From a virus, in the IMG/VR virus record IMGVR_UViG_3300020470_001313, positions 64,001 to 128,000 of that record: DNA of 64,000 bases. One strand, written 5' to 3'. The position numbers and the translations under genes are program-made. Below the pieces are notes generated by a model. That model did not search any database. It saw only the letters and a program-made list of their open reading frames with translations, and was not told the DNA's origin. Below are positions 4,787 through 54,900 of the stretch, piece by piece (position 1 is the stretch's first letter; every line of letters begins with the position of its first letter).

Positions 4787-4787
4787 T

Positions 4788-5327: not shown

Positions 5328-5340
5328 CGTCTTGTCGTGT

Positions 5341-5760: not shown

Positions 5761-5762
5761 AA

Positions 5763-7708: not shown

Positions 7709-7709
7709 A

Positions 7710-30984: not shown

Positions 30985-30992
30985 TATTTATG
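30985..30992 (-). promoter_or_regulatory. Late promoter CATAAATA overlapping the gp7 stop codon
   Basis: CCA-TAA-ATA, about 18 nt before the start at 30967. Confidence 0.6.
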
Positions 30993-33900
30993 GTGTACTT
31001 GACCATATGCTTGTTACAGCGAAGACTCCAAGTGTAGTACCTGTACCCGCTGGAGATGATCCTTGTCCAGGAATGTCTCCACTGTCCACATTAGCAAGAT
31101 TTTCAGGTGTTACATTAATAACATCACTATCAACAATCTCTTCTTTATAAAGAGCTTCTTCACCGTATGCACTTAAATCTGGAGCAGTCCAATCATCAGC
31201 AACCACTTGCGTGATAGTAACACCAGGATAATTGTAACCAGAACCAGGGGCGGTTGTATCTACACGAGAAACACCAACCAGTGCCTTAACTGCGCCATCA
31301 AAACCAGATGCACTGTCAACACGGATAACTGGACGTGCGCTAAATCCAGATCCAGGATTGGTTACCTGAACAGAATCAATTCTATTTTTAACGATAGTAG
31401 CATTACCTTGAGCATCACGACCAAATACAGATCCGATATACTCAAATGTTACTAGTGTGTTAGAAGATTCAATAACAGCAACTTCTCTATCCTCAGTTTC
31501 ACCTTGGATGTCTAGAAGGTCACCTGCCTCAATTGGAGGAACAACCTCAGACTGCGTAACGTCAGCGTCAGAACCAATATACGCGAAACCAACAAATGTA
31601 GATCCTACACGAGGAGTTTCTTTGAAGACGACACGAGAACCAACAAGTTCAAAACCGATTCCAGGTTGCTGAATAACACCGTTAAGTGATATAATGATGT
31701 TGTTGTCTGCGATAATAGACTCAGTTGCCTGTACACCTTCAGTAAGTGCGATAGAGTAGAATGTACCATCACGCTTGAGGTTGAAGGATGATCTCAATGA
31801 GTCAAACTCAAATGATATATCATCCAACTGTCTCATCTTACCTACGTAGAAACCAGTGAAGGAAGATCCAATAGTAGGTGCTTCGTTAAACTGTATGATA
31901 TCAGAGAATGCTGTGTATGAACCAGCTGCGCCTGGAGGTTGTAGAATACCATTCACAAAGATCATCATATGACCTTCAGGATCTGGGAAGTATGGAGTAC
32001 CGTTTTGCTCAGTTAGTTTGAACTGTGTTTGTGTACCATCAAATCCAACGAACCAGCGAGATGTACGTCCTACGACATCTATTTTCTCACTAGATGCTGC
32101 TTTATATCCATCATCAGAAATGATAGTATCATTTCCAGTAAATGTTCCAACAACATCGCTTAGATAAACACGATTTGTTAATCCAATTTCATCAATTCTA
32201 CTTACTGTACCGTAAGCAGTTGTAGTTGCGTTAACTGTAGTAGATACCTGACCATAAATTATTGGACTTGAAGTTTCACCTAATTGATATTGACCAATAT
32301 ATTGACCATTAGCGAATGCGGAAGATCCTATTGGTGACACGTACAAGTAATTATTTGAATCATCCCATCCAGTAACAATACCATATGCACCACCTTCAAT
32401 TATTGACTGGTTGTTATTTGCCTGATAAACATACTGACCAACTGTAAAGTCAAGAGTTGCGTTAGGACCTGTGAGAGTAACACCTAAGCGTGTATATCCA
32501 GTAGCAACAACCTTATCACCTGTAGCAATATTCGCTGCTATGGAAGGATGCTTAGTAACATCTAAGTAAATTCTAGTAGCATCTGGATAAACAATTGAAT
32601 TCTCTTCAAATGAACCTATAACACTTTCAGTATCAAGTGTAAGTTTACCACCTGTATTATCAAGAACAGCACCTTCATTCTTATTGAATGATACGATATC
32701 TGCCTTAGCACCACTACTATAACCCTTGAATGAATATCCAGGTTTCATCTCATTAACAAGATTAATAACTTGGAATCTATCAACGATAGTCTGAATACCA
32801 GCGTTAGTTAAAGTACCAACTTCAAATGTGATATTTGGAGCACCACCATTACCTAATAGTGCGTCAGGAAGTGTTAATACATCACTAACACCATATCCAG
32901 TACCACCATTAGCAATTGTAATGTTAGCAGCACCTTGATCATCAACAGTTACGTTGAATGTTGCGTTAGAACCATTACCACCTGTAGCAGCTATACCATC
33001 GTAAGAACCTTGAGTTCTATTTGCATTAGCACCAGCATTTGTTAGATTAGTGATAGATCCAACAAGGTTAGTACCACCTGCGAGAGCAGCACCAGAAGTT
33101 TGACCTGTAATTCCTAAGTATTGTGTGAATGTACCCGCACTGATTACAACATCCATATAACGGAAGTTATCATCAGATGATGTAGCATAAACAACACCTG
33201 TTATAGCAGCGTTACCAGTGATCTGTACAATTTCACCTAAAGCGAAGTCTGCATTACCACTACCTAGAGTAACCTGATCTGCCTTGAAACTAAATCTCTT
33301 AAAGATCTTAGCAATTCTTGCTTCGTTACTTGTAACTTTTTCAATTTCAGCATAACTGTCAGATCCAATACCATAGAAATGATCAGAACCAACTAACTTC
33401 TGTCCCAATCCAACTGGAATATTTCTAGAACCACCTGCAACATATGTTACTACTGGTAGAGTTACACCAACAAAACCAGTTTGCTGTTCATAGAAACTAT
33501 CATCTACAAGTTGTGACTTATAAAGTCTGATAGTATTCTTGATACGGAACATTACTTCAGGAGTATCATAGTATATGTTCAGTTCTGGTTTATATGCAGG
33601 TATTGTTCCAGAATCAGGAGCAGGATTAGTTAAATTATTATTGAGTTGTTCCTCAACAAAGTCCTCAAATTTATCAAGAATGTAGTTCTTAATATTAAAT
33701 TCATCAGAGATGTAGAACTTCTCACCAGCCTCAGACTGATAGATGTCTAGGAATCCCTTATTAAGTTTAGCACCCCAGATAAATGATCCAGAAGTACCAT
33801 CACCCTGAGAACCACCACCAGCTAAAGTACCAGTATTATTGAGCATATATTCCTTCATAGTAATAGAAGAAATACCGAATGGAACACGAATTGTGATGAA

Positions 33901-36900
33901 TGGGCGGAACCAACCAAATCCATATGGTTTAACACCCCAGAATGTTCCCTTCATATCATTTGAAGGTGAACCATCACCAACAACTACGTTACCGTTAATG
34001 AATAGTGAAGGACCAATCGCACCTGTTACAGCATCCCATGTAAATTCTGCCTGATCTGTAGCACTCCATGAAATGCTATGACGGAACTTGTAATACTCAT
34101 CCTGCTTAACAAAGCAACTGAATGTATATTCTTGATAAGATAGTGAAGAACCTTCGTCAAAGTTGTTATTAGTATCATCAAATGTGAGTGTAGCAGAGTC
34201 AAATGTATCAAATGTTGGTAGATTGAATGTTCTTTCAATTACTTTTGGATCAGTATTAACACCAGGAATATACTTGTCAGCAGTTGAAGTACCGTCTGGT
34301 GCAACACCTATATCATTAGAAATAGTACCACCACTTACAGTCCAACCACCAGCATCAAAAGTCTCTCTCTGTCCACTTGGCCAGATATTATCTGATTGAG
34401 TCTCAGATGAGACAGGTGATGTAATTAAACGTATATTCTGTAATGCTGCGGTATTATTGAGGTTTGCAGTGCTTACTGGACCTTCAATGCAACCTTCATC
34501 CGCACTAGTAAATGTATGAGTAAAGTCACCACCAGTTTGTATTGCATTAATGGCAGCTGCTTGTCCAGCAACGAATGTATGTGGATACTGGTCAGCAGAA
34601 GCTGCAACACCAACATTAATTATTATAGTTCCATCTTGCTTCTTAATACCATTAGGTTTACATGTTACGTAAGTATGTGTTGATGTATCAGGTGAAGCAC
34701 CAATATTAATACTAAACGAATCGTTATTAATAATTGTAGGTTCCAACCACTTCTGACTCTTAGGATCAGTTGCTCTTGGATATGCATGAACACTAATCTC
34801 ATTATCTAAAGCACACTTAAAGGTGATTGCACCATCATCAAGTTTAATTAAATCACCAGCAGAAATACCATGATTATTAATATTAAGTGTTAATATACCA
34901 TTATTAGGATTATATGTAGCATCATCAGGATCATCTACATTATCTGTACCTACTGATTTAATGTTAATTGACTTATTATAATATGGGTCAGTTGTACGTG
35001 GGTATGTTTGATTACCAGCACCCTGAGTACATGTAAATGTCAAACTATTAGGTGCAAGTCTAATGCTAGTACCAGCAAGCAATCTATGACCAGTCATAAC
35101 TGCTCCAGGTAGACTGGAAGCATATGTATGTGCGACTGGTACACTAATAGCACCGCCATTTGGATCATTAACATTAACTGTTATAGTTGTAGAACTAGTT
35201 GCTGTAATAGCAAGTCTATTCTTAGCAGCATAATCTATACCACCTACTGCACGAGAACCAGTTAATCTAGGATATGCAGATTGAGTTTGAGTTGATTGAC
35301 CAACATCAATAGTAACAGTTGTTGCGGTTACAGCATCAATTGGTAAAGTTTGACCTGAAGCAGGGTCAGAAGAACGAGGATAAGGGTGCTGTGTAGCATG
35401 GTTATCAGCGTCACAAGTAAAGATAACTGCTTGATCAGCAATCTCAACAGTATCACTAGTAGTATAACTATGAGATCCAATCTCAACTACTAGAAGTCCA
35501 GTTGCAGGATCATATGTTGTACCAGCAGCAGCAGTCTTTTGACTTAAAGTTCCACCAACATCAAATGTTAATCCATTAGTTGTACCAGTAACAAATGTAT
35601 GAGTACCTGTTGCAGCAGCACAAGTGAAGGTAATAGATTCTGGTTTAAGACCAATAGTATCATCAGTAGTCAATCCATGATTATTACCAACAGTTAACTC
35701 CATATCACCCGAAGTTGGGTTGTATGTTGCGTTACTTACATCAAGTGATCCAACTGTCAATTCCATATCACCAGTAATATGGTTGTAATCAGCAGCAGTA
35801 GGGGTATAAGTTCCAGCAGTTGATTTACCAACATCAACAGTAACAGTGTTAGTAGTTACTGCCTCAACAGCAATATCTTTCTTATAGAATGGGTCAGTAG
35901 GTCTTGGATATGAATGGTAACTACTATCATCATCCATTGCACAAGTAAATGTCAATGAATTAGGTTTGATTTGAATTACATCATTCTGTTTCTGGAGACA
36001 ATCACTAAGTGCTGTCTGGAAAGTATGAGCACTAGTGTTAGAAGATATTCCTACATTAACCTCAAAAGTATTTGTAGTTACTGCGGCAATAGTCAACCAT
36101 CTACCACTAGCAGGATCAGATGATCTTGGATAAGTCTTAGTTACACTATTATCTAAAGCACACTTGAATGTTAATGAATTATCATCTATTTTAATCTTAT
36201 CACCATTCTTAAATCCATGACCACTTAAAGTAATCACCATTGCACCTGTAGCAGGTGTAAAGGCAGCACCAGTTGGTGTATGCTTAGTATATGGTGTCAT
36301 TCCATGACCAGGAATGGTTAATACCAACTTACCTGTTGAAGGTGTATATGATACAGCAGTTGGAGTATAAGGAGTACCAATTAAATCAGATGTAGAAAGT
36401 AAATCATAAATTGCATCATCTTTAACCTGTTTTAGGAAAGCAGTTTCTTCTGCTTCTTCCCAAACTCCACCCCAGTCAGCGATGGTAGAAGATCTAATCT
36501 CTTCTTCAAAGTACTCATCACCAACAAGTATTTGTAATGCTGCTTCACGACCTTGCTTACCAGCAGGTACAAGGATCTCAATTATAGTTTCAATTAAAGT
36601 ATCAATAGCAGATTGAACATTAGCACAATCTTGAGCAGTATAATCAGTATTATAACCATCATCCTGAGAATCAGTTATAGTTAAATCTGTAACAGCAGGA
36701 TTGATGTTTTGATCACTAAATCTACCAACATAATGTTCTGGAGTTAATTGACCAGCACCAGTACTCTGAAGTAAGTTATTAACTGCTTTCTTACAAAGGA
36801 ATCCTGTTCTCTGAATTGCTTCAGCAGTTTGAGCAAGTTGATCTTCAACCTGTACAATATTATTAGATGTGTCAAGGAACTTCTTAGCAGCCTCTACAGA

Positions 36901-39900
36901 ACTGTAGTTACCACCAACAAGAAGGTCAGAAGCAATAGAGTCAACGATAAGAGTCATATCTCTGATACACTTATTCTTACCGTCAGTATCACCACCTGGG
37001 TAGTCAAATACTCTTATAGTGTTGCTACCAGCATCAATATAACTGAACTTCTCTTGCATCAGTCCAACTGCTTCAATAGCAATGTATTCTTTGTTAAAGA
37101 TCATCAAATCGGCAGCATCAGCAAATCTGTCACCAGTTGGTGAAAGAGTACTATTCATCAAATTAACAAGAGTGTCAATAGATGCCTTGACGTTTGCACA
37201 TCCACCACCATCAACAGTAATTCCAGCAGGAGGAATAATAACATTAGTAGAGTAATTAGCAACTAGAGTTCCGTCAATTGCTGCCTTAGCATAGAATGCT
37301 AGACGCTCATGAGCATATAGTGACTGTAGAAGTTGTAGTCTAATATGAAGTATCTCACCGTCAGAACCAAGATAGTATCTAAAGGCAGTAACAGTATTTG
37401 CATTACCACCAAACTCTAAGTCTTCTGCAATAGCATCAAGAATTAAACCAAGGTCAGTCTTACAACGTATTGTACCAAGACCAGAAGCACCACCTGCGTT
37501 TCTTGGCATATCCTGTACAAGATCAGGATAACGAGCAAGCATATCACCAGCAGTTTCATCAACAATAACAGTTGCATTAGCACGAATTAAATTCGCAGCA
37601 TCCTTATATCTGTTGAGTGCATCTGGATTTAATTGATTACTTACAAATAAATCATCATCTGGGAATTCTTTATCACAAGTCCATTCGCTAGTAACATAAG
37701 CATCAACTACACCACCACCAGTTTCACTGGTAGGAGCAGTTCTAGTTACAGTACCAAGATGGTCAGATGGTGTTAATGAATTTGCCTTATCAATAGTGTC
37801 AGATATAATACCTGTATAAGTTGTAATTGCAGAAGCAACATCCTGACAATAAGGATTAGCAGTATCTCTAGTGATTGTAGTATCAATTACCTGTTCATAT
37901 CCATGATCTCCAGTTATTGAGATTGCGTCTCCACGCATAACATTGATCATGAAATCACGAACCTTAGCAATTGCCCATACAGTCTCACCCTCTTCACCAG
38001 AAATATGGTTTATAGTAATATTATTAGTGTCTGAACGATCAACATAGTATAGAGCAGTATCCCAAGACTTACTATTTCCTTCATTACGTAAGTCATAGCA
38101 TATTGCCTTAACCCATTCTTTAGCATCTCTAACACACTTAGAGAATGATGGATGAGTTCTTTGAATAAAGTTAACCGAACTTGGATATTCAAGAGTTCTA
38201 TTAGCACCAGGATCAGATAAAGTATCTGTTACAATCTTCATCAAAGCATCAAGACGTGCATTTGCTTCAGGATATCCACCATAAACGAATGGAATATTTG
38301 AATTAGTTTGCTGAATTTCACCGTGAGAAGTAATTGCATTATCTTCAGAACTTACAAATGTATGTGCATAACCACCACCAGTCTTAACAGCACCAGCAGT
38401 AGCACTCTGGAATGTATGAGTGTAGTTACCACCAGCAATTACAGCACCAGCAGTAGCACCAATAAATGTATGGGCAGTAGGTGAACCTACAGAAGTAATT
38501 GGTTTTACATCAACTGTAATAGTTCCAGTTTGTGTCTCAAGACCATTAGATGTAGCACTTATAAAGATATGCTCAAAATCTCCAATAGTAGTTTGACCAA
38601 CCTGAACATCAAATGTATTGTCAGTTATATTACTGATTGCCATCCACTTATTACTAATAGGATCATTTCCTCTAGGATAAGTATGAAGTGTCTGATGTAA
38701 ATCCTTATTACATGTAAATGTTAATGAATTATCTAATATTCTAACCTTATCTTGATCAGTAAATCCATGATTAGCAATAGTTAGTTTTAATATACCAGTA
38801 GAAGCAGTATATGTAGCACCTGTTACTGTATGCTGATTCTTACCAACAGCAGTAATAGGAAGTGCTCTCTGCCAAGCATAGTCAGCACCAGCAGGTGTAC
38901 CACCAACATAACCAGAACCAGTTCCACGAGGATAAGCAACCTGTACAGGTGAACCACCATAAGTACACTGGAATGTTAATGAACTATCTGCTAGTTTAAT
39001 ACTTTGTGCTTCAATTAAATCATGAGCACCAATATTAAGTACTAAATCACCAGAAGTGAAGTTATAAGTTGCACCAGCAACATCATATAGAACTTGAGGT
39101 GATGCACCAACATTAACTGTAATTTCACCAGTCTGCTTCTTAAGAGCATTACCTACACAACTGTTAAAGGTATGAATAGAAGTATCTGGAGACTTACCAA
39201 TTTGTATATCAAATGTATGTGTTGTTAAGTTCTCAATTGGAATCCACTGAGATGCAGAAGGATCTTTTGGTCTTGGATATGAATGATATGTTGTATCATT
39301 ATCTAACTTACAAGTAAACTTCAATGCATCATTATCAAGTTTGACTTGATCTCCAGCAACCTTAATACCATTAGCAGCAGCACTCTGGAATGTATGAGTG
39401 TAATTACCACCAGTTCTAACAACAGAAGTTAAAATACTGTTATTAACAGCATTAACGAAGGTATGTGTATAATTACCACCACTTTGAACAGCATTAGAGG
39501 AAGTACCACCAACCCATGTGTGTGCTGATACGTTAGAAGAAATACCAACGTTAATAGTAATGGTTGTACGACTTACATCATCAACATAGATTGTTCTATC
39601 ATAGTATGGGTCTCTCTGAATTGAAATACCATTATTAGTAGCAGACTCAAATATATGAGTATCTGGGTTTGTAGAAGGTGCAAGATCTAGAACTTGAACT
39701 TTAAAGGTAGTTGAAGTTACATCAAAGATTGGTAACCATCTACCACTAGCATAATCACTTCCACGAGGATATGAGTGGTTAGTAGCATTACCATCCTTAG
39801 CACACTTGAATGTTAATGAATTATCTGCAATCTTAATCTTCTCACCATACTTGTAACCATGAAGAGGTACAGTCAATGTCAAATGTCCTGTAGCAGGATC

Positions 39901-42900
39901 ATATGATGCAGTATTAACTGTAGAAGTATCAATTGTATTTCTTGGATAGGTGTGAGTTGTTACACCATCTGGTTCTTGTGCAGTAGCATCTTGCTGACAC
40001 TTGAATGATAATGAGTTAGCAGCAATCTTAATACCTTGTCCTTTCTTAATTCCGTGGTTATGACCAACAGTAAGAACCATCTCACCTGTATTTGGTGTAT
40101 AGACTGCATTAGTTACATCATGGTTAACTATAGGTGTCTGACCAACAGGAACTGTAATTGTATTAGCATCTACAACAGTTACATCTAACCACTTGTTAGC
40201 AACTGGATCTGTTGAACGAGGATATGAATGAACAGTTTCATGATGATCCATGTCACATGTAAACTGAAGTGCATCCTCAGCAATCTTAATTCTACCAGTG
40301 GACTCAAGACCATGACCATTAATAGTCATCTGAAGAGTACCATTACCAGGATTGTAAGTTGCAGCACTAGGTGTTAATCCTACAGCAGGAACAAACTTGT
40401 GAGCAAACTGATTACCAGAAGATCCTACATTTACATTAATAGTAATAGTAGTTGCAGTAACTCCCTTAATATTCAATGCTGCATTATAAGCAGGATCAGT
40501 TGTTCTTGGATACTTATGAGTAGTAGCATAACCATCATTAGAACAAGTGAATACTAAAGATTCTTTTGCTAGTTTAATAGCAGTTCCAACCTTAAGATCG
40601 TGGTTACCAATCTCAAGTACCAAATCACCAGTTAGATGATCATAATCTGCATGAGCAACATGGAAGTCCTTAAGAGGTGACTTACCAACATTAACTTTGA
40701 ATACTGTAGTACTGTCAACATCAACATCTAACCACTCACCGAAGGTAGGATCACTCTTACGTGGATAGGTCTTATTACCAGAACCCATTGCACAACTGAA
40801 TGTAAATGCACCTTCTTCAAATCTTACACGAGCACCATTAGCAAGACCATGAACAGCAGTTGTAGTAACTGACAATTCACCAGTTGCAGGATCATATGTT
40901 GTACCAGAAGCACCAGTTAGATTAGTTGGTCCACTCCAACCATGATTCTGTATATCAAGAGTTAGAACACCTGTTTCAGGATTGTATCTAGTACCAGCAG
41001 TACCGATACCAACATTCATTGTAATATCGTTTCCAGACTTAGTAATTGGAATTACTCTACTCCAAGTAGCATCTGCTGTACCAGTTCCTAATGTAGTAAA
41101 GATTGGGTCAGTTGCTCTTGGATAAGCATGGTTTGTAGCATTATTGTCAAGGTCACAAGTCATTGTTAGTGAACTGACCTTCATTTGAACTTCATCACTA
41201 GCAGCAAGTGAATCTGTACCATCAGCACCAACAGTAAGAACTAAGTTACCAGTTTCAGCAGTATAAACTGCACCAGTTACAGTGTAAGTATTACCAGTAG
41301 CACTAGCATCTCTAATACCACCACTAAGAGCAGATACAAATGCATGGTTACCAGCAACTACTGTATGCTGAGTTTGACCAACAGCAGTAATAGGAATGGT
41401 AGTATTATGAACTGGATCAGTTGCACGAGGATAAGTCTTGTTAGTATTCTGACTATCCATGTTACACTGGAATGTCAAAGAATCAGTATCAATCTTAATA
41501 CCATTACCAACATTCATGTTGTGCTTACCAATATTAAGCACTAAGTTACCATCAGCAGGAGTATAGGTAGCAGCAGATACATCATGTCCAACTTCAGGAG
41601 AAGAACCAACATTAAATGTAATATTACCATCTTGTCCTAAGAGTCCATGTGGAGCATGGGACTTGAATACATGATTATAAGCACCACCATTGTAAACAAC
41701 TGCTCTTGTTAAACAATTGAATACAGCAGAAACGAATGTATGAACTGTATTATTAGAAGTAGGACCAACATTAATAGCAAATGTATCTGTAGTGACCTTA
41801 CCAATCTTCATCCACTTACCGCTAAATGGATCAGTCTCTCTTGGATAAGAATGCTGTGTCTTATTATCGTCAGTAGCACATGTGAATACTAAACCAGCAT
41901 CAGCAACCTTAATATATTCACCACTTGCAAATGTATGATCAGCAAGAGTTAGAGTCATCCAACCTGTAGCAGGATCATAATCAGCATCAGTTGGAGTATA
42001 CTGGTTGTTAGCATTAACAAATTGATGAGTACTTGTATTGGTTGGAGTAGTACCCTGTAATGCATTAACCTGAATAGTACCACTCTGATACTGAATACCG
42101 TTAGCAACAGCACTGTCAAATGAGTGAGTTGTAGTGTTAGAAGAAACTCCTACATTACACTTAAAGGTATCAGCATCTACTACCGTTACTGTAATCCACT
42201 TACCACTTATAGGGTCAGTAGATCTTGGATATGCATGAGTACCACCACCAGCAAGACATGTGAATACTATTGAACTGTCTACTATTTTAATTCTTTGACC
42301 AGAAACAAATCCATGAGCAGCAGATGTAATTGTTAATAAACCTGTAGTAGGTTCGTAAGTTGCACCAGTTGCTGTCTTAGAATTAGTTCCAATATCAGTA
42401 ATCTTAAGGAACTTATTATATGCAGGATCAGTTGTTCTTGGATATGACTTATTAGTGATGTAATTATCACTATTATGGTTACAAACAAAGTTTAGAGAAT
42501 TGTTTGCAATCTTAACATACTCACCAACAGAGAAGTCATGATCTCCAATAGTAAGTTCTAGAACTCCAGATGCAGGTGTATAAGATGCACCACTAACACT
42601 GAATCCTTCAACATTTTCACCAGTACCAGTTTCAATACAGTTATTATCAGCACGAACAAATGTATGTGCAGATGTGTTAGAGGATACTCCAACATTAACA
42701 GTAATCTTACTATCTCTTCTTATAATACCATTTGTAGCAACAGCAGTACAGTTATGATTTGAGGTATCTGAAGACTTACCTATCTGAACATCAAAACTAT
42801 TTGTAGCAACAGCATTAATACGTAACCACTGACCACTAGCAGGATCAGTTGGACGTGGATATAGATGATTACTACCGTAACTATCAGTATTACACTGGAA

Positions 42901-45900
42901 GGTTAAGGACTCATCAACAATCTTAACGTATTCACCGACAGTGAAATTATGACCTGTTTGACCAATTGTTAGGACACCTGTTGTAGGTTCATAGTCGGTA
43001 TCTGACTGAGCAGCAGTATATGGTGTACCTTCATACTTAATAGGAATTGAAGTATCATATACTTTGTCACGTTTCTGTTTAATACCATTAGCAGTACCAG
43101 AAACGAATGTATGAGTGTAGTTACCACCAGTCTCTACAGCACCAGCAGAAGCAGAAACGAATCTATGCTCTGTCTGATCTGTTGAAGGAGCAGATGGAAG
43201 AACCTGCATACTAATGGTCATGTCCTTACCAGTGACACATCCAGCAGTACAAGATACAAATGTATGAGCAGTTGTGTTAGTAGAAGGAACAGCAGGTAGA
43301 ATCTGAACAGTTACAGTATCAGGTGTTCTATTAAATACACTTAACCACTTACCACTTGCTTCATCAGTTGCTCTTGGATAAGAATGAACTGTGTCATGGT
43401 TATCATGATCACATGTAAAGCTAAGAGCATTGTTTGCAATCTTGATCTTATCACCATTCTGTATAGGATGATCCTTAATAGTTAAGGTCATATGACCTGT
43501 AGTAGGATTATAATCAGCAAATGTAGGTGTTAAAACAGCATCGCCAACAGCAGTGATAGCAATGGAAGTGTTGTATGTAACACTGTCATTACCATTACTT
43601 CTAGGATAAGTCTTAGTTGTTGAGTGATTATCGTTGTTATAATCACAAGTAAAGGTTAATGAATCTTGAGCAAGTTTAATTGCATCACCAACAACCATTC
43701 CATGAGTACCAATGGTAAGTTCCATGATACCTGTAGTTGGGTTGTAAGAAGCATCAGTTGGTGTATAATTTACAGCAGGAGACTTACCTACATTAACAGT
43801 AAATCTTGTAGTACTAGGAATACTCTCAACTTGTAACCACTTATCATATGTTGGGTCAGTCTGACGTGGATATGCCTTATTAGAACTACCACCATCCATT
43901 GTGCAATTAAATGTGATTGCACCTTCATCAAACTTGATCCAATCACCTACTTGCATACCATGTGTAGCAGCAGTAGTAACATCTAAAACACCAGTTAAAG
44001 GAGCATAGGTTGAACCAGATGCTGCCTGATGAGTGTCAATAGCTGTACGAGGATAAGTATGCTCAGTAGCATTACTATCTAAAGCACAAGTCCAAACTAA
44101 TGAATTAGGTTGAATCTTAATTGTCTGACCCGCAGCAAGACTATGTGTACCAATATCAAGTACCATATCTCCTGTAGTAGGATCATATGTACCATCAGTA
44201 GGAGTGAATGTGTAAGATAGACTCTTACCTACATTAACTTCAAAACTGTCTGGATTTGAATTAGAAATCTTTAACCAACGACCATTCCAAGGATCAGTTG
44301 TTCTTGGATAATTATGATCAGTATGATGATCATCTTGATCACATGTGAATACTAATGACTTACCAAGAATCTGAACACTATTACCATCTACAAATTTATG
44401 TCCAGGAACCCATAACTGAAGTATTCCAGTCTCAGGATCATAAGTTGCATTATCTATAGTATGAGATGTAATACCAACTTCTTTAACTGGATTCTTACGT
44501 AAATATGCTTGATCTTCAAGACGAGGATATGTGTGCTCAGACTTATTACCGTCCATTGCACAAGTAAACTTCAATGAGTTAGCAGTAACACATGCACTAC
44601 CATTAGAACGAGTAGAGTTAACTATAAAGTTGTGTGATTTACCAATATCTACTGTAAGATCACCAGATACAGGTTCATAAGTTGCATCAGATGCCTTGAA
44701 TCCATTATATTGAAGAACTGGAGAGTTGTTAATTACTCTCTTGGTAATGTCTCTGGCTTCGTTAAAGACACGAATTGAGAAACTTTCCTTGCCTTTAAGG
44801 TGGTCAAGTTTAGCATTATTGACATATAACTTAGCAGCATCATATGTTTTATTGTTGTAACCATATGTTAGGTTGTAAGAAATATTTCTGATAATATCTT
44901 TTACGTCATCCTTACAATCTATAGGACCAGTTCCTGGAGGTGGTTCTGGTGAAATACGATCATATGCTTCAGCAGCAATGAAATCTAAGTTACTTTGGAT
45001 GACATTATAGAATTCCTTACCGTAAGTAATAGGTACTTCAGTATCAGGATGAGGAATGTGTAATTTAACAAACTCTTTGTCAGTCTGATAGATTGCTTCA
45101 TTAGCAATCAATTCAACGTTGTTTAATATCTCAGTTGAAGCATCAAAGAATCTGAAGGTAGTATCACCAGTTAAGAACTGATCACCTTCGTTCCATGTAG
45201 GTACTCCAGACCAATCTTGGAAAGTAGTAGATAGGTTAGCACCATCAAAGTGTACTAGGAGAAGAGTGTTAGCATCTCCTTGATGCATATACGTTGCAAC
45301 AGTAAAGTTAGTAGTATAACGCTTATTATTAGATACCCTTAATTCATCAACATATCCTTGGAACTGGTTGGCAGCAGCATGATCTGCACCAATCTTAATT
45401 GGTTTTGTAGTACCATAATCAGTAGCATTAGTCCAAGTAGAACCTACCTGAGTTCCATCTAAGAACATTCTATGATTGTTTCCGTCTCTAGAAACTGCTA
45501 CATGATGCCATGTATTTTGAGTTACAGTACCACCAGTAATTACGTCAGCACCACTAACATGGAATTCTAATCCAGTACCATCAAGTCTTATACAAGGTGA
45601 TGCTTCTGAAGCTTGAGTTCTAAAGTCAATTAAATGCTGAGTACCAGTAACACTAGCAGCATAGAACCAACACTCAACTGTCCATTCACCATTTCCAAAA
45701 CCAAATTCAGTTGAAGTTGGAACTGAAACATAAGCAGAACCATTCAAATATAGAGATGCACTACCAAATTTCTTTTGTAGAGTTGCATTAATAGCACCAC
45801 TTTGAGCAACAGGAACGTGTAAATCTGTACTACGACGTGCTACCTTACCAAGATAAAGATATTTACGTGCATAGTTAGTACCAATTACTTGAGCAGTACC

Positions 45901-48900
45901 ATTCTCACTACGGATAATATCACCAGATAGGATTAAACCATCTGGAGTAACTTTAGGTTCATCATATGCAAGTTTGTATAGACGAACTGTTTCTCCATCA
46001 ATTAAATCACCTGAGATATTAGAGTAGTTAACAATATGGTTACGAATATCTTCATCAACTGTAAATGTACCAGCAGCATTATTATATTCTAGAATTAGGT
46101 TACTTACAACCTCAGAATTAGGGAACTTACTGTTAAATTCTGCATTAACATCATTGATATCAGTTAGTTGTAACTGAGTCTGTGAAATATTATCAAGAAC
46201 AACGTTTTGGAAGTTAATATTAGTAATTCTGTTGAACACTAATCCTTGGAAAGTAGATCCTTCAGAAATAATAACTTGGTTGTTTGGTTCATTAGTTACT
46301 GGGTCTCTATATGCAGAAATACCAACAACTTCAGCAACAATAGCACTCTGCTGACCTATGATTATATCACCAATGACAATATCAAATAAACCAGCAGTAG
46401 ACTGATAAGTACCAGCAGTCTTACTTAATAATACTGTATCTCCAATCTCAATAGTTGTTCCAAAGACATTACTATCAGTTTGGTGACCTACAACAGTAGT
46501 TCCATCAACACCTCTGTTAGCAGTAACAGTGTTACCAATAATACTTGATACTTCAAATCTCTCAGAATCAATCTGATAAACTCCACCAGCATTAGCAACA
46601 ATAGTAACAGTAGCATCTTGGTTACCACCACCACTAATTGTGACTACATCTCCAAGAGAATATCCTGTGCCACGTTCCTTAATCTTAACAGAAGTTATAA
46701 CTCCACTACCATCTGCTTCAACTTCAACAGTCATTCCAGTACCAGATCCACCAGTTGTTGTTACACCATCAATATTATCAATATATCCAGTACCAGCAGT
46801 AGTTAAAGTTACCTTAGCAAGTGCATATCCAGAAGCAACATCAAATGTGTTACCAGATGCAGAAAGACCAGCAGGAACAGTAGTTAAAACCTGACCATTA
46901 TCACCTTCTAGGTTAACTCTTTCAATCTTAGCATTGTCCCCTCTAAGGTTCTCAATGTCTTCTTTAAATTGGAATAGGTTAGTATTTGTAAGTGTAGTAA
47001 TACTATCAACATTTGCAGTAAATCCTGTAGCACTAGAAGTGATTGCTTCACCTTCATATGTAAGAGTTGTAGAAGGATCATCAGTCTGGAAAGGTTGACC
47101 AGCAGTAGTCTTATAGTAGAAATCAACACTTGTTAAACCAGTAGCAACAACAATTGCCTCATAATCAGTTACAATACCTCTAATAGTACCACCGATAAGT
47201 GGGAAAATACCAGAAATAGTACTTAAATTCGCTCTATGGATAGTCTTAAACTCTAATGTAGCATTTGAATACTGAACATTAGCAGGAGGTTGAGGTGGTG
47301 ATGAGAATACAATATTAGATCCCTGAACAGTAAATGCATCTCCAGGAGACTGTACAATACCATTCAAACTAATTAAGAGTTGATTAGCAGATGCAATAAC
47401 AGGTTCTGTTACAACATTACCATCTTGGTTAATATTTTGAACAGTTAATGGGAATGAGATCTTCTCACCATCAAATTGATCTGAAATATCATTAATCTTC
47501 TGAACAGTAGAAGTTAGAATCTGCTCGGAAGAAGTCAAATTCTTCTGTCTGAAACGAACCTCAGTGTTATCAAATTCTGTATAAACTGGTTCAACTAAAG
47601 TAAAGTTCTGTAGATTTGGAACAATTGCAGATTCTGCTAAGTTAACTGACTTAGTAAGTTCAAATGCAGTCTCTTTATTCTCAATAGTTGATTTTTCAAC
47701 TAATCCCAATTCACCAAATACCTTAAATCCAGCAGGGTGAACGTTAGTAATAAGGATGTCTCTCCAGTCAGATATTGAAACAGGAGCCTTAACACTATAG
47801 GAGAAGTCCTGATAGAAGTAAGAGTCTTGAATCTTCTGAATAATTTCACTAGGTTTACCTACATCATCAACGAATCTACCTGGAGTTGTTGTTATAGCAC
47901 CAACTTCCAAAACACCCTTAGCAATACTAAAGTTGTCAATTGTACCAGATGCCTTAGAAATAGTACCAGTAACAATCTGATTCTTACTGAATGTACCAGT
48001 ATAATCAACAATCTTAAGGATTCTAGGTCCAATTTGCCAACCATCATTCTCTGAAACGTATCCAGTTGCAGTTGCAGTTTCTAATGAATCACCTTGATAT
48101 AGTAATTCTCCAGCAAGGAAACGACCAGTAACAACGTTTGCAGTAGCAGCACCACCGAATGAATCGGTTAAAACAACCTGTCTACCAGTACCAGCATTAG
48201 TATATGAGATATAATCACCAATTGCAGCATTATCTTTAGTAATTGCTAAACGTAATTGATCATTTTCTAATGAATTAGTAATACCAGAAATAGCATAATA
48301 TGTTGTATTAGCATTCAATCTACCGAAAGATGAGATTGGTAGTTCTGGATCATCTCCACTACCATCATCATTAGCAGTTAATGTTACAGCAGAACCATTT
48401 ACAATACCATGTGGGAACGAGAATTGTAGTAAATTAAGGTCAAGGTTAACAACATAGTTGAAGGATGACTTCAAAGTTACATCAGGTTGAGAGGAGTAAC
48501 CTGCACCTGGATCCTTAACTTCAATAGCATCAATACGTCCGTTCTTAATAGATGCCTCAGCAGTTGCACCAGTACCTCCACCACCAGCAATAATAACAGC
48601 AGGAGGTGTAGCATATCCAGAACCTGGGTCAGTAACGGTAATACTATCCAGTATGTTTGTACTAGTTAACTGAACGTTGACTGGGAATGTGATTTCAGGA
48701 CGTAATGTATAGTCATGAGTATAATCAAAACCGAAGTTGTTGTTCTTAAGTTTCTTAATCTTACCGATCTTATCTGCTTTAACAAATACAGATGCACCAG
48801 ATCCATTAGGAGGAATAACAACATCTAATTCTGCACCAGAACCAGTAAGTCCAGCACCTAAAATACCAGTGATAGACTCAATATCAATAGTTGCAGTAGT

Positions 48901-51900
48901 ATAATTCTTACCTGGATCAGTAACGATTACCTCAGAAATCTGTCCTGGAATGTTGTTACCATCCTCATCCTCACCATCAGCAACAGTAATATTAACTTTA
49001 CCACCTTCACCGTCACCAGCAATAGGTACTCCAGTGTATTCTCCTACAGCATATTCAGTACCTGGTTCAGTAATTGCAACTCTTTCAATCTTACGATTGG
49101 AAACAATATTTGAAATGACTGGTAACTTCTTGTAGAATCCACCACCATTTACTAGACGAATATCTCCAATTGGTCCAACTGCTTTCTCTGAGAATGTTGT
49201 ATATTTAACTAAACTTGCTTGAGCAGTACCTTCTGGTTCTGATGTTAATGGGAATTTAAAGATTGTATCACCAGTAGTAATAGTACCACCACTAGTAGAA
49301 TAAATTACAAAATTACCGTGATATGGAGTAGTTACAACGTCCATATAGGTACTATCATCAACTGGAGATGTATCACCAGTTCTTGATGGGTCAAAGTAAT
49401 ATGATATATTTGTTACATCATTATTAATAGAAATCTGAACATAAGGTTCTGGTTGGTTTCCAACCTGATAACCTGGAGTTCCAACACGAGTAATTGAGTT
49501 AAATGAATATTCTAACTTAAATAGATTATCCTTAGAGAAGGACATGAAATATCCCTGTAAGGATTCATCACCAAGCATAAACTTATACTTGTGCTGATAG
49601 TACATCTTAAGTACAGGATGCTTGGCATATATGTCTATTAACGAAGCAGCAACAGGTAAACCAACAGCAGTTCCTCTTAATCCAACAATAAATGATCTAG
49701 TACTTAAAACATTAGTAACATTGAATGATCCATTAAATTCATCAAGATCATTACCAGAAATTAACAGATTATCTCCAACTGAATGACGATGTGCTTCAGC
49801 AGTAGTGAAGTAAATCTTATCAGTGTTTGCAGCATCATCAAGAACTATAATCTTCTCAAGATTAGTAATTAGAGTAATCTGAGTTACAGCAGTTAATTGA
49901 TTAGGTGAAGCACCAATTGTTAACTCAGTCTTATCTGCATTCCAACTAACAGTATCAGAAGTTGGAGTAATAACACTTCCAACAATATATGGTGATCCAG
50001 CAGGTGCAGTAGCATCAATTCTTACAGTATAATCATTAATGTTATAATCTTTAAATCTAGCAGATAATCCACCAGGAATGTTGAATATGAATGTACCTTG
50101 TCCAGCAGTAGCATCAAAATCTTGGTTAGCAAAGGTTTGTGATGGAATTTCGTTAACTTCAGTTCCAGTAGATACAATTTCTCCAGTATCTTCCCAACCT
50201 ACCCAATCAGTAGCATTACCGTAACTTGCAACATATACACCAGTATCATCAGTCTCTACAATAGTAGCAGTTCCTATAACCTGTCCACCAGCATTCTTTT
50301 GTTGTAATTGAGATCCAACATTAAAGGTTGCAGGTTGATTGAATGTAAATTTAAGAATGTTATCTGCTTGTATAGCATCAACAGTCTGAATATAGAACTT
50401 ACCCCAAGTTTCTGGAGTTGCTTTAACTTTTCTACCACCAATAGCAGGTATAGTCGCAGTTCTAGTAGACCATACATCTGTAGTTGATGATATAGTTAAA
50501 GAATCAAGTACAAGAGTTGAGTTTACATCATTATAATCTAGAACCTGTAAACCTTCGCCAGCAAGTGTTAATGATCCTGAATTAATTACTTGATCAGTAA
50601 CATTACTGTAAGTATATGCAGCAGTATTGAATTGCCACTTAGTATTAGTTCCAGTAAAGTCTCCTTGACGAGATGTATCAACATTCTTATCAGTCTTAAG
50701 TATTAAACCACAATCAACAGCGTAAGTATATTTCTGAAGATAAGTGTTGAAATCAGCAGTTGTAGATGGAACAATAACCTGAATTACACGGTCAGTAATC
50801 TTAAATCCATCAACGTTAAATGATCCAGCAGTGGTAACAGCCACACCTGTTGCAGCACCAGTCCAGTTGGGTGAGTTACCCATGTAAATCTTAGCAGTAG
50901 TTGCAATATTACTGTTTCCTGGAAGAGTTCCTGTACCTACCTGAATTCCATTAGCATATAAGGTATAAACATTACCTGCTTTAGTTAATGCAACATGAAC
51001 ATAACCAACGTTGTTAATTAAAACATTATCAACACTAGAAATAGCACCAGCAGTTCTTTGAGTAGTAGCAGAAGCAAACATCTCAAGTCTCTTATTACTA
51101 CGGTTTAACATGACCGTAATACCTGGTTCATTACCATGTCCTACACCAAATAGGATATGATGAGTAGATCCAACAGCACCTAATCTAGTATCTTGTTGAT
51201 CATTAGTTTCATCAACTGAGTAGAATCCTTCTATTGTCCAGTCACCATTAATATCAAAGGAATCTCCAAATCCCCAAATACCTGTATTATTACCTGGTTC
51301 TAATTCTAGGTGGGTGTCTGACCATGCAGATCCATCCCAAGCATCAATCATTAAACCACCAGTACTACCCTTACCATTTGGAGCACCAGAAGTAATATTA
51401 GAACCTTTATAATAATCTCCAATGAGTTGTCTATTAGTAATGTTACCTGTTGTATCTACAGGTTCAGTTTCACTAGTTTGTTCAAAATTAAAGAGTCCAA
51501 TGACTTCATTACGGAATGCTTGTCCTACAACAACTGGATCACCAGAAGCATCTGAAATGAATGCGTTAATTTCAAATCCAGTGATATTTCTAGTAAACTT
51601 AATTACATTGGTAGAAATCAGTGTTCCATCATACTTAATCTTACTTACTTCACTTTGTTTACGATATGAATCATATTCAGCAGTAGATTCGTTAACTTCA
51701 TAGTTACATGCAACATTATACTGTCCAAATACGTCAATATTACCACCAATTGCTTTTAAGTTTCTCCAAGTGGTTCCTCCAGTAGGAGTCCAACGCTTAC
51801 CCCAAACAACATCATCATCAACAGTTACTTTAGTAACAATTATTGAATTTGAGTTAGATCCAGAGTATGCAGTACCAGAAACATAGAAATCTCCAAATTC

Positions 51901-54900
51901 ATCAATATCAAACCTAGGATCCCAAATATTATAACTGGTTGCAGTGAAGTTAGTAACTTTGTGTACAGCAAGTTGGAATTGCTGTGCTTCACAATGTGCA
52001 ATAGCAAATGTCTTTTGAGGACTGTTACTAGTAGGTGCAACTTCTAAAAGTGCATAGAATCTACCATTATCAGGATTATATTTGATATCTGTTACTTTTT
52101 CAGAAGAATCGGTACTAGCGATCTTTCTCTTTTGTTGAATAATGAGGTTTTCATTAAATACAATCAAGAAAGCATCATAAGGATTAGAAGTGTTAGTATT
52201 GGTATAACCACCTATACAGAACTTATTCTCACCAACCTTAGTGATTGCAGTTACTATGTCTGCACGAGTAGAACCTGAAATACCAGCAATTTCCTTTTGA
52301 TATTGAATTCCAACATTAGCACCACCTGAAGATTGATTGAACTTCATCAAAACAACATCAGGGTTGTAGTTAATATTAAGTGAATTTGGTTTTGTAGTAC
52401 CAGTTACGTATACATCTTGAGTGTCAGAAGTAATGTCAACATATATTGCAGAAAAATCACAATAAGTATCTTGACCACTTGGTTGTTCTGATCTAGCAGT
52501 CTTAGACCAAATTAAGTCTCCAGACTGAGAATACTTGGCAGCAAAACCTACTCTGTTGTTAAATTCATCTAATGTATTACCACAAACATAGTAATCTTTA
52601 GTACTATCATCTGTAAATATAGCATTAGAAACACTATTTTTTAAATTATTTGTATTATTGAGGAAATACTCTGCCTTCTTAAATGACTGAGGATGTGATA
52701 TTACTAATTTTGGAGCACTAGTAAACCCATTACCAGATCTAACAATATTAAATTCTGATACAGTACCATTACCAGTATCAATTATTGGAGTAATAGCAGC
52801 ATGTTGTCCTACACCATCAATTTCAACTGAAATAGGAACATCATCATTATATCCAGTACCTACTTGAGTTACATTGATTTTTTCAATACCATCAACTACT
52901 TTAACCTTATAAGTCTCTAATTCACTTGCTGAGTTTGGAGTATAATCAATAAGAACTCTATCAGTAGCAAGAAGATCATGAGGTTCAGCACATTCTACAA
53001 CACCATGAGGAACATCATCAATTAACTCATAACTATAAGAACTAACAGATTTACCTTCAATTGTTCTAACAACAGCAGATATACCATATCCTTCAGTATC
53101 AGTATTATCAAAGACTAAACGGTCATTAACCTGATAACTATCACCTGGATTCTCTACAACAAATGATGAAACCGCAGCATCTTCAAATTTAGTTGTTGTT
53201 TCAACTTCAATATCAACTTTAGAGTCAAATCTAACTTTAGGGAAGTAATCAAAGAGTTCTAACTTGTTTTCTTCAAGTAAAGATCCAACATCTGTAAGTT
53301 CTTCAGCAGTTGTTTCAGTATTAGTGATTTCATAGGTAGCGCGGAAACCGACATACTCAATGTCAGTAATATTTGCACTTTGTGAAGTTCCATTATTATC
53401 ATAAGTAAAATCTAAACCAATATATTGATCATAAGTGCCATCAAATGCCTTATGGAAATTTTCATTAGAAATTGCTCTTACTAAAGCAGTATTAACTCCA
53501 AGTCCGTTATGAAGAACTTGTACAGTAATTGCAGAAGTGCTAGGAGCAAATTGAGCATTATTGGTAACAAATGCAGGTACAACATACTGTTGACCTTCTG
53601 CCATTGCAATGGTAGACTGATCGTATGTTAACCTGAATACTCTATCATCTTGACGAGTTGCTAAACGATTTCCGTTTTGTTGGTAATTAGTATCAATTAC
53701 TTGGTCACCATCAGCATCTTCCCAAATTGGGTCAAATGTTAACTCTAAACCATCTTCTGTAGTTAAGAGATCAGCAGTTGCGTTAGGTGTACGTTCAACA
53801 TCAATGTCAACATTCTCATATGGGTCTCTATAACGAATAACACCAGTAGGAATATTTTGCTGTACAGCAGTTGCAGCAAGGTTCCATTTATCTACACTGG
53901 AGTTAAAACTAGGACCAATAATGTATGGGAATACTGGGTTACCATCTTCAGTAGCGTCAATAGTAATGAAATAACCATAAACACCTTCTGGGAACTCAGG
54001 AGTTTTACCAAAACGACCATTATAACGGTCTAAATCACCAACACCGAAGTTATAAGTATAATCTTCTACAAAAGTACCAGCAGGGAATGTATTAGTAGGT
54101 GGAGTTCCATAATATGAATCTGGAATACCATCATCATCACTATCAGTTAAAATTACAGTTTCTCTACCAAATGCATCAATTGGAGGTAATAATGGACCAC
54201 CAGTTCTAACTGGAATTGTATTAGTTACCTCATTATAAACTAATTCTGGTTTAAGACTATAACTAGGTTCTAGACGACGTACATTTGAAGATTGATCAGT
54301 AGGATCAGAATATCCATAAGGACCATAAATTGGGTTACCATCAAACGCCCATCCAAGGATAGGAGAGTGTGTAATATTAGAAGTTGCTTCAGTTAACTTA
54401 CCATTAGCATCTTCAATTAAATTATCACCAAGAACGTATCTAAGTCTCTTAGGATTGCTTAAGTGAGCATATTCACCACCATATTGGTTGTTTAAACCAG
54501 AGAAAACAGATCCTTGAGCATCATCAAGAACAGTAGTAGGAATATACCCACCTCTTGTCTCATTTCCAACTTGTAATGGTTTTTGCTCAGGACCAGCAAG
54601 GTTATAGTTCCAATCTTGAACAGAAGCAGTAAATTTAGCATCTTTACCAACTGAACTTAGAACAATAATTGTAGTTCCTGATTCGTAGTTAATACCACGG
54701 TTACTGATAGTAATACTTGTAACACGACCAGCATTTTCTCCATCAGTATCAATAATTGCTTTTGCAACAGCACCAAATCCAGTACCATAGATTTCTACAG
54801 TAGGAGGTGTTGTATATCCATTACCAGCGTTAATAACAGCAATTGAGATAATTCGTCCATTATTTACAATTGCTTGTGCCTGGGCACCTTCACCAGAGCT

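What the first reader, a model, noticed from the sequence alone, without database searches (positions are those of the whole stretch)
38325..44710. Recursively nested, branching (dendritic) array of 20 YPR modules in gp7
Module segments are a (ATYxPxTGxLxLxIxxH), b (GxxIKIxxxSLxFxC..HxYPR), c (xDP...I..V), d (FxVNVGxS) and e (HTFxSA..NxI). Read by eye, the 2,130 aa parse as fully balanced brackets: U1abc[U2abcd[U3ab[U4abcd[U5abc[U6]de]e]c[U7]de][U8abc[U9]de[U10]]e]d[U11abc[U12[U13 permuted]a[U14abcd[U15abcde[U16abcd[U17ab[U18]cde]e]]e]bcde]d[U19abc[U20]de]e]e. There are twenty YPR motifs, no orphan segments, depth 8, at least six insertion loops, and several modules with two children. The runs of GGNYTHTF are stacked closing strands. 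Inference: one polypeptide folds into a tree-shaped multivalent structure, in which the first module's ends are about 2,100 residues apart and inner modules can complete before outer ones. I know no description of this architecture, but cannot search to confirm novelty. The conserved Cys, His, YPR and Asp may form a ligand or metal site.
Basis: partly seen in the sequence, partly recalled or inferred. Interest (0 to 1): 0.92.

Follow-up and report, generated by a model that had tools for sequence, protein, structure and literature searches.

The report
Self-nested barrel-domain tree in cyanophage gp7
A 9,242-residue baseplate protein of a T4-like marine cyanophage carries 20 copies of one small beta-barrel domain spliced into each other's loops up to seven deep, forming a branched protein "tree"; this build is otherwise described for cyanobacterial RNA polymerase, and I found no paper describing it for a virus particle.

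Summary
Window 30988-58716 (-) is one 9,242-aa gp7-like baseplate wedge ORF. Residues 4674-6797 hold exactly 20 YPR motifs.

- **Parse.** A profile-based "peel" (excise complete modules, rescan) recovers all 20 modules as complete ~100-aa units, with balanced last-in-first-out closure. Depth is 7, not 8. This array uses four insertion loops, not six.
- **Local ambiguity.** U11-U13 has two balanced parses.
- **Structure.** Two AlphaFold2 models (pLDDT 91 and 84) support discontinuous folding. Solved single beta-barrel domains superpose on the split modules U4, U5 and U16 over exactly the predicted nested ranges, as well as on contiguous leaves. The other split modules were not shown directly, and U14's closing segment is poorly modelled.
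- **Fold.** It resembles the phage endosialidase insert barrel and the E1 FCCH barrel (Z 7-8).
- **Family.** The build is family-wide: 120 homologous giant proteins, at least 447 split modules, depth up to 11.
- **Function.** Host-surface adhesion and a His-Cys-His metal clasp are inferences only.
- **Precedent.** The closest known architecture is the Si3 insertion of cyanobacterial RNA polymerase. This scan has already found the same build in gp7 of other cyanophage genomes.

The parts
30988..58716 (-). 9,242-aa gp7-like giant baseplate wedge ORF
   Evidence: Single open frame. Pfam Baseplate_wedge at residues 692-738, YHYH at 1410-1588, Laminin_G_3 at 4325-4464. phrog_701 and phrog_2885 hits.
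38326..44697 (-). Array 1 and root module U1. U1 pieces: aa 4674-4750 (abc), 5691-5710 (d), 6779-6797 (e)
   Evidence: Recovered in peel round 7. The spliced U1 scores 85.6 bits over profile columns 6-102.
41647..44466 (-). U2: aa 4751-4835 (abcd) + 5673-5690 (e). Children U3, U8 and U10 sit in the d|e loop
   Evidence: The spliced module scores 117 bits.
42628..44211 (-). U3: aa 4836-4897 (ab) + 5219-5236 (c) + 5339-5363 (de). Children U4 (b|c loop) and U7 (c|d loop)
   Evidence: All pieces have pLDDT 83-96 in model 1. Barrel closure is not directly shown by the alignment lists.
43063..44025 (-). U4: aa 4898-4982 (abcd) + 5196-5218 (e, GGNYTHTF)
   Evidence: Single barrels align over model range 55-386 with 66-90 residues at rmsd 2.6-4.1. 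The best row is UBA1 FCCH 9mc4_A: Z 8.0, rmsd 2.9, 82 aa.
43132..43770 (-). U5: aa 4983-5062 (abc) + 5168-5195 (de)
   Evidence: Phage N4 tail domain (9lc0_I: Z 6.1, rmsd 3.5, 85 aa) and aIF2-gamma domain II align over model range 146-362.
43216..43530 (-). U6: contiguous leaf, aa 5063-5167
   Evidence: 125 bits. Model range 224-330 matches the endosialidase barrel (3gvj_A: Z 7.0, rmsd 2.3, 82 aa).
42703..43008 (-). U7: contiguous leaf, aa 5237-5338
   Evidence: Model range 395-503 matches FNR-type barrels at Z 5-6.2.
42007..42600 (-). U8: aa 5373-5445 (abc) + 5549-5570 (de), holding leaf U9 (aa 5446-5548)
   Evidence: 90 and 120 bits.
41704..42006 (-). U10: contiguous leaf, aa 5571-5671
   Evidence: 132 bits.
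41308..41586 (-). U11: aa 5711-5803, contiguous in my parse.
   Evidence: 177 against 190 bits for the two parses.
38383..41289 (-). U12: aa 5810-5906 (abcd) + 6761-6778 (e).
   Evidence: Unresolved.
39121..40998 (-). U13: aa 5907-5935 (a) + 6453-6532 (bcde), an a|b split enclosing five modules
   Evidence: 103 bits after peeling. pLDDT 71-85 in model 2. Closure not directly shown.
39361..40911 (-). U14: aa 5936-6018 (abcd) + 6430-6452 (e). Children U15 (leaf, aa 6019-6112) and U16 in tandem
   Evidence: U15 matches barrels over model range 109-203. U14's closing segment is poorly modelled (pLDDT 59-73, with 527-532 below 50).
39430..40374 (-). U16: aa 6115-6197 (abcd) + 6412-6429 (e)
   Evidence: Barrels align over model range 205-532. 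The best row is phi92 endosialidase 4hiz_B: Z 7.5, rmsd 2.4, 81 aa.
39484..40125 (-). U17: aa 6198-6263 (ab) + 6368-6411 (cde), holding leaf U18 (aa 6264-6367)
   Evidence: pLDDT 78-94. U18 corresponds to model range 355-464, Z 7.5-7.8. The two halves folded as separate chains gave only weak support.
38437..39084 (-). U19: aa 6545-6626 (abc) + 6735-6760 (de), holding leaf U20 (aa 6627-6734)
   Evidence: 56 and 128 bits.

Best explanation
Residues 4674-6797 of the gp7-like protein are a self-nested array of 20 copies of one ~100-aa beta-barrel domain, the 'YPR barrel'. Its segments are a to e, with conserved Y11, G16, H25, F42, C44, Y55-P56-R57, D60 and H90.

Shown:
- Whole further copies are spliced into four surface loops of the barrel (a|b, b|c, c|d, d|e).
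- The chain therefore lays down the N-terminal parts of successive modules on the way out and their C-terminal parts, in reverse order, on the way back.
- The result is a branched tree, seven levels deep, hanging from one root barrel (U1) that sits between helical segments.
- In silico, split modules fold into the same barrel as contiguous ones.

Inferred:
- Each parent-child junction is a double linker, which would make a compact, fairly rigid, shear-resistant bush whose two chain ends stay together at the baseplate.
- Leaves can fold during translation, while outer barrels close only when their last strands emerge. For U1 that is about 2,100 residues later.
- The conserved His-Cys-His set, spread over segments a, b and e, may clasp the separated pieces around a metal.
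- By position (periphery of the baseplate wedge protein) and by fold likeness to the sugar-binding insert barrel of phage endosialidases, the tree most likely serves multivalent attachment to the cyanobacterial surface.

The confidence given is for the architecture. For the adhesion role I would say about 0.5, and for the metal clasp about 0.35.
For: Grammar:
- All 20 modules are recovered by automatic peeling. Spliced U1 and U2 score 86 and 117 bits.
- 0 of 1,000,000 random piece orders parse, and first-in-first-out matching fails.

Structure:
- AlphaFold2 model of U3-U7: pLDDT 91.3, pTM 0.67. The short closing pieces score 83-95.
- AlphaFold2 model of U13-U18: pLDDT 84.3.
- Solved single barrels align to nested model ranges 224-330 (U6), 146-362 (U5), 55-386 (U4) and 205-532 (U16). 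The range ends fall within about 10 residues of the predicted module limits, mostly within 5.
- The same reference domains fit split and contiguous modules equally well: UBA1 FCCH, endosialidase barrel, aIF2-gamma domain II.

Fold:
- Endosialidase barrel Z 7-8, rmsd 2.2-2.4, 81-83 aa.
- One of the eight modules scanned gave a weak hit to Pfam End_beta_barrel (E 0.008).

Family and constraint:
- 1,550 b-segments in 120 homologues, 998 peeled modules, 447 of them split. Several proteins are fully accounted for (18/18, 19/19, 29/30). Insertion points fall in four discrete peaks.
- Orthologues at 95% and 74% identity are collinear with only 1-2-aa indels. pN/pS is 0.21 and 0.45.
Against: - No coordinates were available. 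Domain closure is inferred from alignment ranges, not from measured contacts.
- It is shown for three of the eleven split modules in my parse. U14's closing strand is poorly modelled (pLDDT 59-73).
- U1, U2, U8, U12 and U19 were not modelled.
- The multiple alignments contain paralogous modules, so AlphaFold2 may lean towards completing barrels.
- A control that shuffled pieces and re-ran the HMM peel recovered 9-17 modules against 18 observed. That statistic is weak on its own.
- Barrel matches of Z 5-8 are in the range that common folds reach.
- Function, metal binding and folding order have no direct evidence here.
Confidence: 0.85

Rival explanations
1. The nested tree is real, but it acts only as an inert structural element, such as a strut, spacer or shield of the baseplate. 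It would not bind the host.
For: No binding site was identified. Leaves and inner modules diverge at similar rates between 74%-identical orthologues, so there is no obvious fast-evolving tip. pTM 0.67 suggests fixed inter-domain packing.
Against: Tree topology varies greatly among related phages, as expected for host-interaction parts. The fold resembles the endosialidase insert barrel. Sullivan et al. 2005 regarded the P-SSM2 and P-SSM4 homologues as tail-fibre-like (PMC1079782).
Confidence: 0.3
2. The open N-terminal parts are completed by closing strands from another copy of the protein. This would be domain swapping among the copies of gp7 in a baseplate, so the bracket grammar would reflect inter-chain rather than intra-chain pairing.
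For: Sequence grammar alone cannot tell intra-chain from inter-chain complementation. T4 baseplates contain several copies of gp7 (my own knowledge, not tested here).
Against: Monomer models close U4, U5 and U16 within one chain at high confidence. Strict last-in-first-out order is what intra-chain hairpin-like return predicts and is not needed for swapping.
Confidence: 0.06
3. There are no discontinuous domains. The region is a linear fibre built from two interleaved repeat types, 'ab(cd)' units and 'HTF' units, and their equal numbers are incidental.
For: Runs of GGNYTHTF look like an ordinary short tandem repeat. HMM-level shuffles still recover many modules.
Against: Closing pieces match, type for type, the state of the last opened module. 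Peeling makes every parent a full-length, high-scoring module. The models and structural alignments show whole barrels over split ranges. The same holds in 120 homologues.
Confidence: 0.03

Closest known systems
Si3 insertion of cyanobacterial RNA polymerase beta' (RpoC2); crystal structure of Thermosynechococcus Si3, PMC10895346
   Same: Copies of one small beta domain (SBHM) are not in simple tandem. Four of the eight are built from distant parts of the chain, as the chain runs out and folds back over itself. The whole insertion starts and ends at one point of the host protein.
   Different: The fold family differs or is at best unproven: Foldseek matched 8emb_D at E 3e-4 with probability 0.11, and it was not among the listed VIA-align rows. 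Si3 has 8 domains against 20, and the host protein is an RNA polymerase trigger loop rather than a virion baseplate protein. The paper passages I read do not describe branching, whereas here four loops serve as insertion points, several modules carry several children, and depth reaches 7.
Beta-barrel insert domain of phage endosialidases (phi92 4hiz; K1F endoNF 3gvk, 3gvj, 1v0e; Pfam PF12195)
   Same: Best structural match to single modules: Z 6.8-8.1, rmsd 2.2-2.4, 81-83 residues. One of the eight modules scanned gave a weak Pfam hit (E 0.008). It is itself a domain inserted into another domain of a phage host-recognition protein (my knowledge).
   Different: It occurs as a single copy and is not self-nested. 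No significant sequence relation was found by a profile search of PDB sequences. Sugar-binding residues were not compared.
FCCH barrel of ubiquitin-activating enzymes (UBA1, UBA6; Pfam PF16190)
   Same: Equally good structural match: Z 7.4-8.0, rmsd 2.6-2.9, 73-82 residues. PF16190 is precomputed on some homologues and on one ESM Atlas cluster.
   Different: No Pfam hit in this protein at E 0.01. The biology is unrelated. This is probably a shared common barrel fold.
T4 gp7 baseplate wedge protein
   Same: The N-terminal part carries Pfam Baseplate_wedge (39 bits against a cutoff of 27). Gene neighbours are virion genes.
   Different: To my knowledge T4 gp7 is far smaller and carries no such array (not compared here). 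The cyanophage versions were noted in 2005 only as very large gp7 fusions.

Membership tests
T4 gp7-like baseplate wedge protein | Pfam Baseplate_wedge (PF23786) above the gathering score | tested here: met
   39.2 bits against a cutoff of 27 at residues 692-738. phrog_2885 and phrog_701 hits.
Recursive domain-in-domain insertion (architecture class) | Every opened module is closed in reverse order by the segment types it lacks | tested here: met
   Automatic peel recovers 20 of 20 modules. 0 of 1,000,000 random orders parse, and first-in-first-out matching fails.
Recursive domain-in-domain insertion (architecture class) | Split modules adopt the same compact fold as contiguous ones | tested here: met
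   Met in silico only, for U4, U5 and U16. U3 and U17 are confident but were not directly shown. U13 and U14 have moderate or low confidence.
Recursive domain-in-domain insertion (architecture class) | Experimental structure showing discontinuous domains | not testable with these tools
   Needs cryo-EM or crystallography.
SBHM / Si3 of RNA polymerase | Sandwich-barrel hybrid motif fold | tested here: inconclusive
   Foldseek matched 8emb_D at E 3e-4, probability 0.11, TM about 0.07. It is not among the 50 listed VIA-align rows.
SBHM / Si3 of RNA polymerase | Located in the trigger loop of RNA polymerase beta' | tested here: not met
   The host protein is a virion baseplate protein.
Endosialidase beta-barrel (PF12195) | Sequence membership above the Pfam threshold | tested here: not met
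   Only 1 of 8 modules matched, at E 0.008. There were no hits in the whole-protein scan.
Endosialidase beta-barrel (PF12195) | Same barrel fold | tested here: met
   Z 6.8-8.1, rmsd 2.2-2.4, 81-83 aligned residues. Z values in this range can also arise from common folds.
Metal-binding domain (His/Cys site) | Conserved ligands close together in space and a bound metal | not tested
   Only conservation is shown: H25 96%, C44 99%, H53 75%, H90 97% of 288 modules. No coordinates were available.

The most novel reading that the evidence does not exclude
The YPR barrel is a dedicated self-nesting building block of marine cyanomyovirus baseplates. A His-Cys-His metal clasp would tie together chain segments that may lie up to 2,100 residues apart. 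The tree would fold from the inside out during translation. Gain, loss and duplication of whole sub-trees would retune a multivalent glycan-binding bush that sets host range.
Probability: 0.3. Interest if true: 0.88.

Novelty: new variant of a known kind. Interest (0 to 1): 0.8.

Why it matters
- **Protein architecture.** One- or two-level domain insertion is common. Seven levels (eleven in a homologue) with branching, using one domain 20-30 times, is the most extreme natural case of recursive insertion I could document. It raises testable questions. How does a barrel whose strands are 2,100 residues apart fold? Does the build protect inner domains from force or proteases?
- **Phage biology.** The largest genes of abundant ocean viruses were known only as 'gp7 fusions'. 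This reading gives them a concrete, parseable structure and a unit of evolution, the sub-tree, for host-range studies.
- **Annotation.** The module has no Pfam family. About 700 clusters at 50% identity carry it.

Tried and rejected
A degenerate HxYPRxxDPxxxxW DNA pattern scan supplied the loci instead.
- The HMM-level shuffle of pieces recovered 9-17 modules against 18 observed, so it discriminates only weakly. I replaced it with the symbolic grammar test.
- The test that indels should be whole sub-trees could not be run. The 74-95% orthologues have no module-scale indels. At 45% identity or less, pairwise alignments merely match segments, with gaps of ~28, 45, 57, 85 and 105 aa, so positional orthology is lost. 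The balanced parses of homologues are the indirect substitute.
- Self-insertion by recent duplication is not supported. Parent-child pairs are no more alike than other pairs (34.9% against 37.3%). Modules in equivalent tree positions are the most alike (U4 and U14, 57%). In that script one stray residue wrongly made U10 a child of U8.
- Leaves do not evolve faster than inner modules.
- Complex prediction on the two halves of U17 as separate chains gave weak support only: ipSAE 0.32 against a best control of 0.00. In the tool's calibration 58 of 80 solved complexes and 2 of 110 mismatched pairs reached the mark, but scores of 0.60 or less came from only 7 of those 80 and from both mismatches. 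The three runs shared at least 87% of their contacts, and the partner's pLDDT was at least 54. I do not lean on this result.
- A PDB sequence search with the module profile found nothing significant.
- Nine literature searches found no description of nested barrels in phage virion proteins. The library lacks most subscription journals.


Full report
**What is there.** Window 30988-58716 (minus strand) is one uninterrupted ORF of 9,242 codons. Its N-terminal part carries Pfam Baseplate_wedge. Further along are YHYH and Laminin_G_3 domains. It matches the PHROG families of giant cyanophage 'virion structural / baseplate wedge' proteins. Homologues at about 30% identity over the flagged region include the P-SSM2 'baseplate wedge initiator'. 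Sullivan et al. 2005 noted these genes of more than 15 kb only as gp7 fusions, possibly tail-fibre-like (PMC1079782). The finding covers residues ~4670-6797.

**The observation.**
- There are exactly 20 YPR motifs between residues 4730 and 6680, and six more in a second array at 7529-7979.
- Eight copies are contiguous and align as a ~105-aa module.
- A profile built from them hits the rest of the region only in part. Hits stop at profile columns ~28, 57-63, 74-79 or 85-88, and orphan C-terminal hits start at the same columns.
- To test the bracket reading without hand parsing, I excised every complete module, rescanned the shortened sequence, and repeated. With a profile from this protein alone, 18 modules emerged in six rounds. 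The last two (U2, U1) score 117 and 86 bits once spliced as the nested reading predicts.
- With a family profile built from 288 contiguous modules of other phage contigs, all 20 are recovered automatically as one tree of depth 7.
- The root module has its pieces at 4674-4750, 5691-5710 and 6779-6797.
- Closing pieces match, type for type, the state of the most recently opened module. None of 1,000,000 random orders of the 36 pieces parses. None of 1,000,000 reshuffles of only the 16 continuation pieces parses. A first-in-first-out rule fails. The piece types were derived from the parse, so this measures how special the order is rather than acting as an independent test.
- A cruder control, shuffling pieces and re-running the HMM peel, recovered 9-17 modules against 18, which is weak.

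- Depth is 7, not 8.
- This array uses four insertion points, not six.
- Around U11-U13 two balanced parses exist. Mine needs no permuted module but leaves a canonical 'd' segment (6529-6543) unused, and totals 177 bits. I cannot decide between them.

**Does it fold that way?**
- I collected collinear homologous stretches from viral metagenome contigs.
- The AlphaFold2 model of residues 4836-5366 (U3-U7, five modules, three of them split) has mean pLDDT 91.3 and pTM 0.67. The short closing pieces score 83-95.
- The model of residues 5907-6533 (U13-U18) has pLDDT 84.3 and pTM 0.49.
- Coordinates are not exposed, so I used the structural-alignment ranges. Solved single barrels, mostly about 80-100 residues, align with 63-90 residues at rmsd 2.2-4.1 A to these model ranges: 224-330 (leaf U6), 395-503 (leaf U7), 146-362 (U5; predicted pieces 148-227 and 333-361) and 55-386 (U4; predicted 60-147 and 362-384) in model 1; and 355-464 (U18), 109-203 (U15) and 205-532 (U16; predicted 209-291 and 506-523) in model 2.
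- The ranges are nested. Their ends fall within about 10 residues of the predicted module limits, mostly within 5. The same reference domains fit split and contiguous modules equally.
- This shows discontinuous barrels for three split modules. U3 and U17 are confidently modelled but were not displayed in the lists. U13 is moderate. U14's closing strand is poor (pLDDT 59-73).
- Folding the two halves of U17 as separate chains gave only weak support: 0.32 against a best control of 0.00, with the calibration caveats given under Tried and rejected.

**The fold.**
- The best matches are the insert barrel of phage endosialidases (phi92 4hiz, K1F endoNF; Z 6.8-8.1, rmsd 2.2-2.4) and the FCCH barrel of E1 enzymes (Z 7.4-8.0).
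- Next come tail-tip and tail proteins of lambda, N4, Chi and JBD30, FNR-type FAD-binding barrels and translation-factor domain II.
- One module gives a weak Pfam hit to End_beta_barrel (E 0.008). No Pfam family covers the module, and no PDB sequence relative was found.
- Z values of 5-8 can reflect a common barrel, so I claim fold likeness, not homology.

**Family and constraint.**
- Across 120 giant homologues I counted 1,550 'b' segments and peeled 998 complete modules, 447 of them split. Depth reaches 11. Several proteins are fully accounted for (for example 18/18, 19/19, 29/30).
- Insertion points form four sharp peaks at profile columns ~28-35, 60-66, 76 and 84-92.
- Tree shapes differ widely. 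One protein repeats a four-deep nest five or six times.
- In this protein, modules at equivalent tree positions are the most alike (U4 and U14, 57%), while parent and child are not. This pattern suggests growth by duplication of whole nests.
- About 713 clusters at 50% identity carry the module.
- Orthologues at 95% and 74% identity are collinear over the whole array with only 1-2-residue indels. pN/pS is 0.21 and 0.45.
- The most conserved positions are Y11, G16, H25, F42, C44, Y55-P56-R57, D60 and H90.

**Mechanism (inferred).**
- A barrel whose ends lie together can be dropped into a loop of another copy without disturbing it. Repetition gives a tree in which each junction is a double linker and both chain ends return to the root.
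- The whole 2,124-residue excursion is thus a plug-in on the baseplate protein between helical segments.
- Leaves can fold as they are made, whereas outer barrels must wait for their last strands.
- The His-Cys-His set spans segments a, b and e and could act as a metal clasp for separated pieces.
- The baseplate location, the variable topology among phages and the endosialidase-like barrel point to multivalent host-surface binding. None of this was tested.

**Comparison and novelty.**
- The closest described architecture is the Si3 insertion of cyanobacterial RNA polymerase. It has eight SBHMs, four of them assembled from distant chain segments as the chain folds back (PMC10895346). I reached it through a Foldseek hit.
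- A fold relation between the YPR barrel and SBHM is unproven.
- Here the host protein, the scale (20 modules), the branching and the depth differ.
- Nine literature searches found no description for phage virions.
- This scan has already reported the same build in gp7 of other cyanophage genomes, with the same closest analogue. My tests were independent of those notes.
- I rate it a new variant of a known kind, and of high interest.

Noticed in passing
window 34477-36369 (-), aa 7450-8080: A second array of six YPR modules. Segment hits fit V1a[V2]bcd[V3a'[V4ab'[V5]YPRcde]a''bc[V6]de]e. It has extra insertion points inside segment a and inside the FTC...YPR loop. One module (aa ~7705-7808) has its 'e' segment before its 'a' segment, a circular permutation that is needed for the counts to balance. 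My automatic peel recovers only the two contiguous leaves.
   Followed up: partly
window 37507-37602 (-), aa ~7039-7070, and flanks aa ~4560-4670 and 6800-7440: The tree sits between helical repeats of the type C(K/R)xD...AIxxDLxxGGN...YY. One gives a Pfam Phycobilisome (PF00502) hit of 21.8 bits, just under the 22.2 cutoff (E 2e-4). PF00502 is also precomputed on many homologues.
   Followed up: partly
proteins P0002 and P0006 (homologues): P0002 parses to depth 11 with 29 of 30 modules accounted for. P0006 carries five or six repeats of the same four-deep nest '((()))', which suggests duplication of whole sub-trees.
   Followed up: partly
window 8523-15881, 16433-23887 and 25467-28904 (-): Three further very large ORFs (2,452, 2,484 and 1,145 aa) lie downstream of gp7 on the same strand, presumably other baseplate or fibre proteins. 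The PHROG tail-fibre family phrog_5342 also matches the YPR region.
   Followed up: no
window 45325-45744 and 53953-54489 (-): Laminin_G_3 (aa 4325-4464, 103 bits) and YHYH (aa 1410-1588, 92 bits) domains lie within the same giant protein.
   Followed up: no
BFVD entries: Small viral proteins of 148-151 aa consist of a single YPR barrel (TM 0.65-0.68, rmsd 1.4-1.7). A Synechococcus virus S-PRM1 protein annotated 'Endosialidase' also matches the model.
   Followed up: no
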